From assembly GCA_964389655.1 (NCBI GenBank), contig CAYMED010000008.1:1-64000 (forward strand): a stretch of DNA of 64,000 bases, written 5' to 3'. The stretch comes from an uncultured Candidatus Poseidoniales archaeon (GTDB lineage Archaea; Thermoplasmatota; Poseidoniia; Poseidoniales; CAYMED01). This document shows positions 56,871 to 59,776 of this stretch, one piece after another. Positions within the stretch are counted from its first letter, which is position 1, and each line of letters begins with the position of its first letter. The position numbers were made by a program, and so were the translations under genes. The notes beneath the pieces are model-generated. The model ran no database searches. It was not told the DNA's origin and saw only the letters and a program-made list of their open reading frames with translations.

Positions 56871-57011
56871 AACGCGTTAATTAACACATCAACGCGTCAA
56901 CCAACGCGTTAACAAAACACCCCTACGCGTTAACAAAACCCCCCAAACGACAACCATAACGCGGCGTCGCACCACGAAGAACGCGTTGAAATGGCGCGTT
57001 CTGACGCGTCA
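56871..57011. repeat. Intergenic array of ACGCGT palindromic boxes
   Basis: Exact ACGCGT at 56872, 56892, 56904, 56925, 56981 and 57004; near copies at 56959 and 56994; 15-bp direct repeat ACGCGTTAACAAAAC at 56904 and 56925. Confidence 0.9.
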
Positions 57012-57036: not shown

Positions 57037-58440
57037 TTGGTTGCCCAAGGCTCAATGTTGTCTAAGTGGAAATTTGATCTTCCAGCACTTCGATCGAATC
57101 CATTCTCACTTGCGCCACTTGAACCTGAGTCTCGTGATTTACTCGTTGGCAGGGGAGTTGAAGTTGAACGATTTTATGAATCGGTTCATTACAGTTCAGC
57201 TCGCCAAATTCTCCTTATCGGGGAATCAGGCAGTGGGCGCACATCGCTATTATCGGCAGTTGCGGGAATGGTGGATGCTCCAAAACGCTTCACGATGCTT
57301 CCTGAAGATGGTGATTTAGACCGATGCTTGGGTGAATTGTATTGTACATTGGTCTCGTTTGATTCCCCGCAAGGTGGCCGATCCTCAATCGTAGAGCACA
57401 TTGTCGCTTCTCTTGCACCTTCACCGAATGGGGAGATCCCTCTGATTATTCTTGATGATTCATCAATTGATGGGGGCATCCTCGCAGAACTTACCATGCG
57501 TCTATTACCTCTTTTTCGCCGCATGAAGGCAGTTGTAGTTATTTCCGTTACTCCTGCACAAATTGCATCTTGGTCCGATGATCTCGTCGAATCATTTGAT
57601 CTAATTGGGCCATTAAATCCGCTCGCAGAAGAGGAAGTAAAGGACTTGATCTGCTCGAGAATGAACAGAGCAGGTGCACACGGGTGGGTTCCTCCTCAGG
57701 GCTTAGTTGAGGAGATTCTTGACCAAACAGGAGGGCATCCTAGACGTATTGTTCGGCTAATGCGAGATGCGATAGACCATCAGAGAACTGGGCGTGATCG
57801 AACTTCTGCCCTTGCAGAACTCCATTTGCGAATGCAAAGCCAACTGGAAAATTCCTCCTCCCTTGATGAATTAGAATCTTCACCTTCTCCGCCAGTTCAT
57901 TCATTATCGCCTCTACCAATTCCCGTATCAAATGTGCAAACTCCAGAACCGATCCACACTCAAACTTTCCAAGAGGCACCAGGAGTTGAATGGTCAGCTT
58001 CTCCGGAGATATTGGGTCACTCTCCGTCTCCTCCCGGATTTGGTGGTTTGGCAGCGCGTAATAGGAATTTCTTGGACGCATCCAATGAATTTCCATCCCC
58101 ATCGGATCAACCAGTAACGCCACTTCCACTAGCTCCGGATCCAAGGATCGATCAAATTTCTCCAGAACCCGAACCATCTCTCTTAATAGACGATCTAAAG
58201 GGGATGGAAGTCACATTACTGATTGCAGCGGCAGGTCGCTCAATTTCTCCTTCGGACGAAAAATTGCAACTCGACTTTGGCATTGGACGTCCTCGTCTTT
58301 CACAGATTCTCAACGGTTTGCGAAAGCGCGGATATCTCAATGTTGAGATGCAAGGCCGCCATCGCATGTTCCGCACTCCCGTTTCTATTCACACATCGCT
58401 GATACATGCCGGTCACCTTGAGGAGGTGGAAAGTACATGA
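57037..58440 (+). CDS. Atypical AAA+/STAND-like P-loop ATPase with Pro-rich linker and C-terminal winged helix
   Basis: NPF..LVGR, Walker A GESGSGRTS, Walker B LIILDD, TGGHPR, wHTH IGRPRLSQILNGLRKRGYLNVEMQGRHRMF. Confidence 0.75.
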   Translation: MVAQGSMLSKWKFDLPALRSNPFSLAPLEPESRDLLVGRGVEVERFYESVHYSSARQILLIGESGSGRTSLLSAVAGMVDAPKRFTMLPEDGDLDRCLGELYCTLVSFDSPQGGRSSIVEHIVASLAPSPNGEIPLIILDDSSIDGGILAELTMRLLPLFRRMKAVVVISVTPAQIASWSDDLVESFDLIGPLNPLAEEEVKDLICSRMNRAGAHGWVPPQGLVEEILDQTGGHPRRIVRLMRDAIDHQRTGRDRTSALAELHLRMQSQLENSSSLDELESSPSPPVHSLSPLPIPVSNVQTPEPIHTQTFQEAPGVEWSASPEILGHSPSPPGFGGLAARNRNFLDASNEFPSPSDQPVTPLPLAPDPRIDQISPEPEPSLLIDDLKGMEVTLLIAAAGRSISPSDEKLQLDFGIGRPRLSQILNGLRKRGYLNVEMQGRHRMFRTPVSIHTSLIHAGHLEEVEST

Positions 58441-59480
58441 GCAGTGAAAATTCGTGGACTATTGCATGGTCTCATGAATTTGAGAACAATATTTCAGCAC
58501 TTGGAATTGATATGAACGGTGCCATCGTTCTAAGTGACGACAAAGTATACGCTTTTGACCCAAATGGTTCTCAGATTTGTTCGACAAGATTGCGTGCTTC
58601 GACTTATTCGGTTTCTATTTCAGAGGGAATCGTTGCAATTCTAAGTGGCCCAGATCTTTGGTTTCTCAGCCGCGAGAATCTAGATTCAGTATTTGAACCA
58701 AGGCGTGTTCCAGGTGGTTTTCATTCAGTGATCCCTAGAGTGGGGGGTGGATGGGTTGCTGCAGACCGTGGAGACCATATCCATCTTTTTTCTGAGCGTG
58801 GACGTGGATTAAGACGAATACGTAGTGGCGCAGTTCGCCGCCTCTTGGGTTGGTTTGATCGAGAGCATTTGTTATTGCAAGGCCTCGATGGGCGTCTTTC
58901 TTGTATTTGTGTTACTGGAAGAGGGCGTAAGCGCACAGTCGACGAACGCCCGTGGTCATATGCGAGTTTGTTGCATGATGGTGCTTGTTTAGTAGAGTCG
59001 ATTGATGGTGCTTTGCATATTGGAGTGCCGGATCCTTTTGGCTGGTCTCGTTTTGACCTTGCTTCACCCCCTGGTGTTCTAGAGCCATCCTCTTCCGCTC
59101 CCTGTGTCGACGGGTGGCTTGTTGTCGACCTTTCAGGTGAGGTTCATCTTGCTCCAATTACTGAAAATCCCTCCCCAATTGTTCAGAAAGCAGACCTCAT
59201 TGCCTCAGATGGGCAATATGCTGCAGGTGTTGGAAATCGATCTGGCTTATTCCGGTGGATCGATGCTCCTGTAGCAAGTCATCAACGTGGTATTGACTTG
59301 CGGAAGCGAGCAGCAGAAGCGCGAGAGAAATCAGATTGGGATCAAAGAGAAAGCCTCTTTGAAAAGGCCCGAGATGCGGAAGATGGGGGTGCAATTACCC
59401 GCGCGATTGAACTTTATCGGGCCTTAGGCCGAGATGAAGATGTACGCCGCTTACTTGCTGTGCAGGAGGAAGATCGATGA
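58437..59480 (+). CDS. Beta-propeller (WD40/PQQ-like) protein with C-terminal helical segment
   Basis: Repeated blades (KVYAFDPNG, HIHLFSERG, GLDGRLSC, SIDGALHI, DLSGEVHL); ATGA-coupled to both neighbours. Confidence 0.65.
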   Translation: MSSENSWTIAWSHEFENNISALGIDMNGAIVLSDDKVYAFDPNGSQICSTRLRASTYSVSISEGIVAILSGPDLWFLSRENLDSVFEPRRVPGGFHSVIPRVGGGWVAADRGDHIHLFSERGRGLRRIRSGAVRRLLGWFDREHLLLQGLDGRLSCICVTGRGRKRTVDERPWSYASLLHDGACLVESIDGALHIGVPDPFGWSRFDLASPPGVLEPSSSAPCVDGWLVVDLSGEVHLAPITENPSPIVQKADLIASDGQYAAGVGNRSGLFRWIDAPVASHQRGIDLRKRAAEAREKSDWDQRESLFEKARDAEDGGAITRAIELYRALGRDEDVRRLLAVQEEDR

Positions 59481-59776
59481 GTGATGATATGGTAATGGTA
59501 ACTCTTGAACGAATTGAGAAGGCACTTTCAATTACTGCTGAGGCTCGAAAATTGTTGTCTCCTCTTGTAACTGCAGATTCACATCTTGGAAAAATTCTGG
59601 CAGATATGCTTCGTATGGCCGATGATTACATCGCTGATGCATCTCATTTCAGAGATAAAGGAGATCTTGTGCGGGCGCACGCCGCTTCTTCTTATGCGCA
59701 TGCTTGGCTTGATGCCTCGGTGCGAATCGGTCTTGCTGATGGGCATGGCGATGATCGACTATTCACTCTACCATGA
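59477..59776 (+). CDS. DUF357 family protein
   Basis: MADDYIADASHFRDKGDLVRAHAASSYAHAWLDASVRIGL is the DUF357 signature. Confidence 0.85.
   Translation: MSDDMVMVTLERIEKALSITAEARKLLSPLVTADSHLGKILADMLRMADDYIADASHFRDKGDLVRAHAASSYAHAWLDASVRIGLADGHGDDRLFTLP

What the first reader, a model, noticed from the sequence alone, without database searches (positions are those of the whole stretch)
57037..59776. Translationally coupled atypical ATPase-wHTH / beta-propeller / DUF357 operon driven from the ACGCGT array
Seen: three genes joined by ATGA overlaps (58437, 59477), followed by cdc6. The ATPase has Arg in place of the Walker A Lys (GSGRTS), DD in place of DE in Walker B, a GHP motif, a long Pro/Ser-rich linker and a terminal wHTH. 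Established: ATPase+wHTH is the Orc1/Cdc6 and STAND architecture, and STAND sensors often use WD40 propellers. Inference: a split, possibly hydrolysis-impaired ATPase with a propeller partner that reads the upstream array, i.e. a candidate undescribed replication, segregation or cell-cycle module.
Basis: partly seen in the sequence, partly recalled or inferred. Interest (0 to 1): 0.8.

Follow-up and report, generated by a model that had tools for sequence, protein, structure and literature searches.

The report
Hydrolysis-dead AAA+ DNA-binder operon of Poseidoniales
Every genome checked of the abundant marine archaea Poseidoniales carries one operon for a DNA-binding ATPase that has lost its catalytic residues, sitting behind a unique phased repeat array that it most likely binds; its cellular role is still unknown.

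Summary
Three genes are joined by ATGA overlaps. The first encodes a P-loop protein with Arg at the Walker A Lys position, no Walker B Glu, a disordered linker and a C-terminal winged helix. The second is a confidently predicted seven-bladed beta-propeller with a helical tail. The third is DUF357.

The interpretation needs refining.
- **ATPase class:** it is a degenerate offshoot of ExeA-like AAA_22-wHTH proteins (hhalign 99.9%, E 1e-31). Orc1/Cdc6 scores far lower (94%, 1e-7).
- **Distribution:** single copy in 41 of 41 Poseidoniales genomes, and not found in 71 other genomes of the phylum.
- **Array:** the gene always lies behind half-sites (GCGTTAA type) phased at 11 bp. This cluster is unique in this genome.
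- **Propeller:** accessory, missing from 12 of 41 genomes.
- **DUF357:** a near-universal archaeal gene whose operon partners change between lineages.
- **cdc6:** a second, divergent paralogue in a gene block that flips orientation.

No AT-rich unwinding element accompanies the array. The best reading is a hydrolysis-dead AAA+ protein that polymerises on its own promoter array and controls itself and perhaps the divergent HMG-CoA reductase gene. A centromere-like or origin role is neither supported nor excluded. An earlier follow-up in this scan described the array on this same DNA.

The parts
56872..57009 (.). Array of six ACGCGT-core palindromic sites (T[T/C]AACGCGTT[A/G]A type) in the 149-bp intergenic region shared with the divergent HMG-CoA reductase gene. 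This is the candidate binding array of the ATPase-wHTH protein.
   Evidence: the only cluster of this kind in the genome; homologous GCGTTAA-type arrays in 21 of 21 loci, with a spacing mode of 11 bp.
57037..58440 (+). Gene 1: a 467-aa degenerate AAA+ (ExeA-like AAA_22 type) protein with a disordered linker and a C-terminal wHTH. It starts at TTG, with GGAG 4 nt upstream.
57220..57246 (+). Walker A P-loop GESGSGRTS, with Arg68 at the Lys position.
   Evidence: Arg in 82 and Lys in 7 of 89 family members. The P-loop glycines and Thr/Ser are nearly invariant.
57442..57459 (+). Walker B LIILDD. Asp140 is invariant and the catalytic Glu is absent.
   Evidence: Glu in 0 of 88 members.
57733..57765 (+). 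Sensor-2 region GGHPRRIVRLMR ('GHP motif'). The Arg residues are conserved.
   Evidence: it aligns to GDAR of Cdc6 and to GxPR of ExeA-like proteins.
57805..58164 (+). Pro/Ser/acidic disordered linker (aa 257-376) holding the conserved short motif FGGLxxRxR.
   Evidence: pLDDT below 50; linker length varies and the motif is kept in all lineages.
58201..58407 (+). C-terminal winged helix-turn-helix, the most conserved part of the protein (SPSD...GRPRLSQ..NGL...G....GR.R).
   Evidence: ArsR-type match; it aligns with the Orc1 WH domain.
58437..59480 (+). Gene 2: a 347-aa seven-bladed WD40/BamB-like beta-propeller (aa 8-276) with a three-helix C-terminal tail (aa 278-346). It is specific to the order and accessory.
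59477..59776 (+). Gene 3: DUF357 (arCOG01224), a small helical protein that is near-universal in archaea.
   Evidence: PMC6393860 and PMC12680538.
55529..56887 (-). The divergent neighbour, HMG-CoA reductase, which shares the array-bearing intergenic region. It is a possible co-regulated target.
   Evidence: divergent in 21 of 21 loci; no array upstream of this gene in the class-level outgroup.

Best explanation
Gene 1 encodes a sequence-specific DNA-binding protein derived from ExeA-like AAA_22-wHTH ATPases. It keeps a strongly conserved phosphate-binding loop but has lost the Walker A Lys (now Arg), the Walker B Glu and the Arg finger. It probably still binds a nucleotide and hydrolyses it very slowly or not at all.

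Its highly conserved wHTH most likely recognises the GCGTTAA-type half-sites phased one helical turn apart just upstream of its own gene. The AAA+ modules, tethered by a long disordered linker, would then pack head to tail into a stable nucleoprotein assembly over the promoter.

The immediate consequence would be control of the operon itself, and probably of the divergent HMG-CoA reductase gene. The propeller would be a lineage-specific accessory partner. DUF357 would be a co-translated housekeeping gene whose functional tie to the ATPase is uncertain.

Shown here: gene structure, folds, catalytic degeneracy, phyletic pattern, array co-occurrence and array uniqueness. Inferred: DNA binding to the array, nucleotide binding, oligomerisation and the regulatory outcome.
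For: - **Homology:** the N-domain profile matches ExeA-like AAA_22-wHTH archaeal proteins at 99.9%, E 1.1e-31 over 239 columns. In those proteins Lys, DE and the box VII Arg are intact.
- **Fold:** AAA+ fold with structural neighbours Orc1/Cdc6, MuB, TnsC and RFC at Z 13-15.
- **Active site:** P-loop G62, G67 and S70, Walker B D140 and R243 are invariant in a domain only 23-41% identical. Arg occupies the Lys position in 82 of 89 members, and Glu never follows the Walker B Asp.
- **DNA-binding domain:** the wHTH is the best conserved segment.
- **Array:** CGTTA/TAACG is enriched in the upstream intergenic region in 21 of 21 loci (P 1e-4 to 1e-16), with a same-orientation spacing mode of 11 bp in 32 of 77 intervals. 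The proximal sites abut the TATA-like box. The cluster is unique in the 2.1-Mb genome.
- **Distribution:** the gene is single copy in 41 of 41 genomes of the order and was not found in 71 other genomes of the phylum. The one class-level outgroup lacks both the gene and the array upstream of hmgA.
Against: - No binding, nucleotide or oligomerisation experiment exists, and no multimer or DNA complex could be modelled here.
- Eight phased sites at a single locus are more than a simple operator needs.
- A regulator with only a local target is an odd thing to keep universally across an order.
- Another protein could bind the array.
- Arg at the Walker A position could abolish nucleotide binding instead of merely slowing hydrolysis.
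Confidence: 0.5

Rival explanations
1. Centromere-like or SMC-loading element. The protein-array complex would mark one chromosomal site next to smc-scpA-scpB and act in segregation or condensin loading, as an AAA+-based analogue of ParB-parS or ParR-parC.
For: - The array is unique in the genome and phased.
- SMC-ScpA-ScpB lies within about 2 kb upstream in the window and in 19 of 20 relatives (one of these shows only the end of ScpB at a contig edge).
- The gene is universal and single copy in the order.
- A hydrolysis-dead scaffold suits a static complex.
Against: - Synteny in this order is conserved generally, so adjacency is weak evidence.
- G018 keeps HMGR-array-ATPase-DUF357 without SMC/ScpAB nearby.
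- HMG-CoA reductase sits between the array and scpB.
- No motor or partition ATPase partner is present.
- No data on SMC interaction exist.
Confidence: 0.15
2. A secondary replication origin with a dedicated, diverged initiator. AAA+ plus a DNA-binding domain on oppositely oriented 11-bp phased site arrays resembles DnaA on oriC or an iteron-Rep pair.
For: - Structural neighbours include archaeal Orc1/Cdc6 (2qby_B, Z 15.4, 308 residues aligned).
- Archaeal origins usually lie next to their initiator gene (established knowledge).
- A cdc6 paralogue sits in the adjoining gene block.
Against: - There is no AT-rich unwinding element. The intergenic region is 53% GC in this genome against 47.7% for the window, and its lowest 40-nt stretch is 42.5% GC. 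Several relatives likewise have no 40-mer below 33-38% GC.
- The protein is far closer to ExeA-like proteins than to Orc1/Cdc6.
- The canonical Orc1/Cdc6 lies elsewhere: 1.13 Mb away in G003 and about 92 kb away in G026.
- The cdc6 block flips orientation.
- GC skew in G003 was uninformative.
Confidence: 0.08
3. Split STAND-like signalling switch. The propeller would be the sensor that gates the ATPase-wHTH.
For: - When present, the propeller gene is always immediately downstream and overlapping.
- The propeller and the ATPase gene were found only in this order (ATPase; for the propeller only same-phylum MAG hits turned up; no outgroup search was run).
- Weak nSTAND1 and AAA_16 Pfam hits.
Against: - The propeller is absent from 12 of 41 genomes (5 genera), which keep the ATPase, the array and DUF357.
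- The conserved linker motifs do not track propeller presence.
- The Pfam STAND hits are below threshold.
- Without hydrolysis the usual STAND on/off cycle is missing.
Confidence: 0.12
4. The array belongs to another factor, for example a regulator of HMG-CoA reductase, and the ATPase-wHTH acts elsewhere. The adjacency would be historical.
For: - The intergenic region is shared with hmgA in 21 of 21 loci.
- No direct evidence shows which protein binds the array.
Against: - The array was seen only where the ATPase gene is present. The outgroup hmgA upstream region has no such sites.
- The proximal sites hug the ATPase promoter.
- No other array cluster exists for the wHTH to bind in this genome.
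Confidence: 0.1

Closest known systems
ExeA-like AAA_22 ATPase fused to a C-terminal wHTH (uncharacterised archaeal proteins of 350-420 aa; some sources label them 'type II secretory pathway predicted ATPase ExeA / predicted transcriptional regulator')
   Same: - N-terminal NPF...VGR motif, AAA+ base and lid, GxPR sensor-2 and C-terminal wHTH.
- hhalign 99.9%, E 1e-31.
   Different: - The relatives keep Walker A Lys, Walker B DE and the box VII Arg, and they have no long linker.
- The Poseidoniales family has Arg in place of Lys, no Glu, no Arg finger, and a disordered insert of 110-400 aa.
- It also has an order-wide fixed locus with an upstream array.
Archaeal Orc1/Cdc6 initiators (for example S. 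solfataricus Orc1-1/Orc1-3 on origin DNA, PDB 2qby; A. pernix Orc1, 2v1u)
   Same: - Three-part plan of AAA+ base, lid and DNA-binding winged helix.
- Top structural matches (Z 14-15).
- Two helices between beta2 and beta3, as in the initiator-specific motif.
   Different: - Only remote profile similarity (94%, E 1e-7).
- No match above the curated cut-off to Cdc6_lid, Cdc6_C or TIGR02928 (only 12.3 bits against a 181.3-bit cut-off).
- Catalytic residues are lost, a long linker is inserted, and the repeats are not ORB-type.
DnaA on phased low-affinity boxes of E. coli oriC, and ParR on the 11-bp iterons of R1 parC (own knowledge; the parC comparison was made by the earlier follow-up e1-5624137)
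   Same: - Arrays of short sites one helical turn apart, in two groups.
- The arrays lie at the promoter of the binding protein's own operon.
- Cooperative same-face binding is expected.
   Different: - DnaA is an active ATPase next to an unwinding element, and ParR is a small ribbon-helix-helix protein with an actin-like partner.
- Here there is no unwinding element and no motor partner, and binding is not demonstrated.
HerA-like ATPase-DUF357 operon of other Thermoplasmatota
   Same: DUF357 is translationally coupled to the 3' end of a P-loop ATPase gene (earlier finding e1-727591).
   Different: - The partner there is a HAS-barrel/DUF87 ring ATPase of a different superfamily.
- This genome has only a distant 872-aa HerA-like gene elsewhere.

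Membership tests
AAA+ ATPases, ExeA-like AAA_22 group with C-terminal wHTH | Significant profile homology across the AAA+ base and lid, including the N-terminal NPF...GR motif and the GxPR sensor-2 | tested here: met
   hhalign A5 against A7 gives 99.9%, E 1.1e-31 over 239 columns. The hmmsearch second tier consists of such proteins.
AAA+ ATPases, ExeA-like AAA_22 group with C-terminal wHTH | Catalytic set: Walker A Lys, Walker B Asp-Glu, Arg finger | tested here: not met
   Arg replaces Lys in 82 of 89 members and Glu is present in 0 of 88. The box VII Arg is replaced. The family is a derived, catalytically degenerate offshoot.
AAA+ ATPases, ExeA-like AAA_22 group with C-terminal wHTH | Pfam AAA_22 (PF13401) match above the gathering score | tested here: not met
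   16.2 bits against a cut-off of 27. No Pfam or NCBIfam model reaches its cut-off.
Orc1/Cdc6 replication initiators | Match to TIGR02928, Cdc6_lid or Cdc6_C above cut-off | tested here: not met
   TIGR02928 scores 12.3 bits against a cut-off of 181.3. There is no Cdc6_lid or Cdc6_C hit. The two true paralogues of the genome score 425 and 225 bits.
Orc1/Cdc6 replication initiators | AAA+ with an initiator-type insertion plus a C-terminal DNA-binding winged helix | tested here: met
   The AF2 model has two helices between beta2 and beta3 and a terminal wHTH. It aligns to 2qby_B at Z 15.4 over 308 residues. This plan is shared with other AAA+ groups.
Orc1/Cdc6 replication initiators | Adjacent origin with ORB repeats flanking an AT-rich unwinding element | tested here: not met
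   The repeats are of GCGTTAA type. The intergenic region is 53% GC and its lowest 40-nt stretch is 42.5% GC.
STAND NTPases | NOD module (NB-ARC, NACHT or nSTAND profile) above threshold, followed by a sensor repeat domain | tested here: inconclusive
   nSTAND1 scores 23.7 bits (cut-off 27.1) and AAA_16 scores 22.5 (cut-off 32.6). STAND structures appear among the fold hits at Z 12.5-13. The candidate sensor (the propeller) is a separate gene and is dispensable.
WD40/PQQ-type beta-propellers (gene 2) | Seven four-stranded blades closing a ring | tested here: met
   AF2 pLDDT 92.5 with about 26 strands. Foldseek hits COP1, WDR5 and BamB at E 1e-12 to 1e-14, TM 0.5-0.64. No Pfam WD40 match.
DUF357 (PF04010, arCOG01224) (gene 3) | Pfam match above the gathering score | tested here: met
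   69.1 bits against a cut-off of 29.4. Matches PDB 2oo2 at 8e-6.

The most novel reading that the evidence does not exclude
The hydrolysis-dead AAA+-wHTH protein and its unique 11-bp phased array form a chromosomal landmark of Poseidoniales next to smc-scpAB. It would be an archaeal, AAA+-based counterpart of ParB-parS (condensin loading or segregation) or a DnaA-like secondary origin. Archaea have no known system of the first kind.
Probability: 0.15. Interest if true: 0.85.

Novelty: new variant of a known kind. Interest (0 to 1): 0.55.

Why it matters
Poseidoniales (Marine Group II) are among the most abundant archaea of the surface ocean and have no cultured member, so their chromosome biology and gene regulation are known only from sequence.

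This operon is one of the few order-defining, universal and uncharacterised gene sets that comes with a clear and unique DNA target, which makes it directly testable in vitro.
- If it is a local regulator, it would be a candidate for the first described control element of archaeal HMG-CoA reductase, the entry step to membrane lipid synthesis.
- If it is a chromosomal landmark, it would bear on how archaeal SMC is positioned.

It is also a natural example of an AAA+ protein that keeps a conserved P-loop while losing every hydrolysis residue. Finally, it gives a new genomic context for DUF357, listed in 2019 as a top-priority unknown of archaea (PMC6393860).

Tried and rejected
- **GC skew.** I sampled 39% of the complete relative G003 (40 stretches of 20 kb). 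The skew was weak and noisy, with no extremum at either cdc6 locus, so it gave no origin call.
- **Pattern search.** A three-unit phased pattern over whole genomes was too brittle: degenerate sites and a masked N run in G003 spoilt it.
- **Sequence searches.** Sequence-only searches of PDB, Pfam and NCBIfam gave only generic P-loop hits below the cut-offs.
- **Linker motifs.** FGGLxxRxR and LW are kept whether or not the propeller is present, so they are not evidence for a propeller docking site.
- **Outgroup propeller.** The secreted propeller gene divergent from hmgA in the class-level outgroup is not homologous to gene 2 (hhalign 29%).
- **Viral or plasmid origin.** tblastn found no phage match. 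IMG/VR gave one weak partial P-loop hit.
- **Literature.** I found nothing on this family or on Poseidoniales origins.
Full report
**Setting.** The window comes from a Poseidoniales (Marine Group II) archaeon. Homologues carry names such as 'Candidatus Poseidoniales archaeon' and 'Euryarchaeota archaeon'. The assembly has 2.1 Mb in 104 contigs and is 93% complete. Gene order around the finding is SMC, ScpA and ScpB (+), HMG-CoA reductase (-), a 149-bp intergenic region, then the three genes of the finding, an Orc1/Cdc6 gene, S6e, aIF2-gamma and a PIN protein.

**Observation.**
- The three ORFs are 57037-58440, 58437-59480 and 59477-59776.
- Both junctions read ATGA, and each downstream start has a GGAGG-type ribosome-binding site inside the preceding gene.
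- The first protein has GESGSGRTS, LIILDD, TGGHPRR, a Pro/Ser-rich middle and a C-terminal helix-turn-helix.
- The third matches DUF357 at 3e-19.
- Six ACGCGT copies lie at 56872-57009. This is the only cluster of its kind in the whole assembly.

**The ATPase.** No Pfam or NCBIfam model reaches its cut-off. The best are nSTAND1 at 23.7 bits and AAA_16 at 22.5 bits.

AlphaFold2 on a 30-sequence alignment gives an AAA+ base and lid (aa ~16-255) and a wHTH (aa ~389-457) above pLDDT 90. A disordered stretch at 257-376 joins them.

Solved-structure neighbours lie within about two Z units of each other:
- archaeal Orc1/Cdc6 (2qby_B, Z 15.4, 308 residues aligned, rmsd 10.7 because the domains sit differently);
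- Drosophila Cdc6, MuB, TnsC, RFC and STAND proteins.

Fold alone therefore places the protein in the initiator, loader and STAND part of AAA+ and no further.

Profile comparisons separate the candidates. Against the Orc1/Cdc6 proteins of the same genomes, hhalign gives 94.3%, E 1e-7. An exhaustive profile search of 1.84 billion representatives found 68 clusters at E below 1e-30. Below the family's own full-length and fragment hits came a second tier near 1e-15 to 1e-10. This tier consists mostly of proteins of 347-416 aa (two of the ten scanned are 599-662 aa, with TPR repeats or a second AAA_22 domain) carrying AAA_22, AAA_16 or ATPase_2, most with a terminal wHTH. Some sources label them ExeA-like ATPase/transcriptional regulator, and one comes from an Asgard archaeon. 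Against an alignment of these, hhalign gives 99.9%, E 1.1e-31 over 239 columns. The match includes the N-terminal NPF...VGR motif and the GxPR sensor-2. The family is thus a derivative of ExeA-like AAA_22-wHTH proteins.

**Catalytic degeneracy is a family trait.**
- Among 89 members, the Walker A position is Arg in 82 and Lys in 7. The residue after the Walker B Asp is Tyr, Phe, Val, Ala, Leu, His or another residue, and never Glu.
- The box VII Arg of Cdc6 (SRF) and of the ExeA-like relatives aligns to a non-basic residue.
- The P-loop glycines, Thr69, Ser70, Asp140 and the sensor-2 arginines are invariant or nearly so, in a domain that is only 23-41% identical overall.
- My inference is that the pocket is still used, most simply to hold a nucleotide, while hydrolysis is lost or very slow. 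It is established that Lys-to-Arg Walker A mutants such as RecA K72R bind ATP but hydrolyse it poorly.

**Distribution and linkage.**
- The gene is single copy in 41 of 41 Poseidoniales genomes from 15 genera.
- The N-domain profile finds it at E below 1e-80 in 10 of 10 genomes of the order. In 71 other Thermoplasmatota genomes, including the class-level relative G066, it finds nothing beyond generic P-loop matches (E 2.5e-6 or weaker).
- In 20 relatives the order HMG-CoA reductase (divergent), ATPase, [propeller], DUF357 is fixed, and the junctions overlap or abut.
- SMC-ScpA-ScpB lies upstream in 19 of 20. One of these shows only the end of ScpB at a contig edge, and G018 lacks the cluster within 6.5 kb.
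- The cdc6-S6e-aIF2gamma-PIN block is always adjacent. It lies as in the window in only 4 of 20, is inverted in 15, and in one only cdc6 is inverted. cdc6 is therefore not part of the transcription unit.
- Each genome has two Orc1/Cdc6 genes. The neighbour here is the divergent one (205-234 bits against TIGR02928, versus 380-425 bits for the other). The other lies on another contig here, 1.13 Mb away in G003 and about 92 kb away in G026.

**The propeller.** The model has pLDDT 92.5, with about 26 strands followed by three helices. Foldseek matches WD40 and BamB-type seven-bladed propellers at E 1e-12 to 1e-14. Homologues turned up only in Thermoplasmatota or Poseidoniales MAGs. The gene is present in 29 of 41 genomes, always directly after the ATPase gene. 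It is missing from five genera with genomes of 1.3-1.6 Mb, which keep the ATPase, the array and DUF357. It is a likely partner but not a core part.

**DUF357.** It is one of the 76 archaeal single-copy core genes used by anvi'o (PMC12680538). As arCOG01224 it is present in 463 of 524 archaea and is listed as a top-priority unknown, usually linked to DUF555 and a cytidylyltransferase (PMC6393860).

In the sampled Thermoplasmatota it is present in 52 of 61 genomes. There it follows a HerA-like DUF87 ATPase in six loci, a CTP-dependent riboflavin kinase with a wHTH, or a DUF4443-wHTH protein, or it is fused to a GNAT domain. In the class-level relative it stands alone. This genome has no close orthologue of that HerA-like partner.

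Because its partners vary so much, the coupling here is weak evidence for a shared function. The repeated pairing with P-loop ATPases is still worth noting.

**The array.**
- Across the order the conserved unit is a GCGTTAA-type half-site. ACGCGT arises where two half-sites abut, and in this genus every site is such a palindrome.
- CGTTA/TAACG is enriched in the intergenic region of 21 of 21 loci (P 1e-4 to 1e-16). The same-orientation spacing peaks at 11 bp in 32 of 77 intervals, with minor modes near 22, 30 and 42.
- In most relatives, a cluster of about five to seven sites is followed after 25-75 bp by one to three proximal sites next to a TATA-like box of the ATPase gene.
- The outgroup hmgA upstream region has no such sites.
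- This agrees with the earlier follow-up of this scan on the same DNA (e1-5624137), which I re-tested independently.

**Reading.**
- The most economical explanation is that the wHTH binds the half-sites, and that the AAA+ modules, which pack head to tail in this superfamily, stabilise a cooperative assembly on one face of the DNA over the protein's own promoter. That assembly would control the operon and perhaps hmgA.
- The divergent regulator-target layout and the uniqueness of the site fit a local regulator.
- The number of sites and the order-wide conservation leave room for a structural chromosomal role.
- An origin is unlikely. The intergenic region is 53% GC in a window of 47.7% GC, with no AT-rich 40-mer here or in several relatives, and the protein is not an Orc1/Cdc6.
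- GC skew could not decide the matter.
- No viral relatives were found.

**Verdict.** This is a real, conserved, order-specific operon built around a new, catalytically degenerate branch of ExeA-like AAA+-wHTH proteins with a defined candidate DNA target. Its replication or segregation reading is unproven, and two of the three genes are less central than it proposed.

Noticed in passing
L033:870-889 and L033:2532-2551 (G000 contig C1, around the canonical Orc1/Cdc6 gene at L033 1393-2631, minus strand): A 20-nt inverted repeat with a G/C string (ACAGAATAGACTCCCACATC / GATGGGGGAGTCTATTCGGT) flanks the canonical cdc6 gene. It looks ORB-like and may mark the main origin.
   Followed up: no
L027:7973-9998 (G022) and L028:7987-10111 (G026): In two genomes of one genus the ATPase gene is split into two overlapping frames within the disordered linker (295+393 aa and 454+275 aa). 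Whether this is a real split or an assembly frameshift is unknown.
   Followed up: no
L055, L056, L048, L058, L041 and L051 (other Thermoplasmatota): DUF357 is tightly coupled to the 3' end of a 450-480-aa HerA-like (HAS-barrel/DUF87) ATPase gene. In other loci it follows a riboflavin kinase-wHTH or a DUF4443-wHTH gene, or it is fused to a GNAT domain.
   Followed up: partly
L026 (G018:C3:14500-32300): This genus keeps HMGR-array-ATPase-DUF357 and the cdc6 block, but has no SMC/ScpA/ScpB within 6.5 kb upstream, unlike the other 19 relatives.
   Followed up: no
window 57805-58164 and the homologous linkers (alignment A2): The otherwise hypervariable acidic/Pro-rich linker holds short conserved motifs: FGGLxxRxR in all lineages, and MEPGTEPP and xLW[VT]xD in most. 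The window's genus has the shortest linker and lacks the LW motif. These are candidate docking motifs for unknown partners.
   Followed up: partly
L120:2114-3193 (metagenome-assembled archaeon, GCA_964576855.1): One of the closest catalytically intact ExeA-like AAA_22-wHTH relatives lies near PCNA and the topoisomerase VI subunit A gene. Another (L123) is the first gene of a block with a restriction-modification system and many small ORFs.
   Followed up: no
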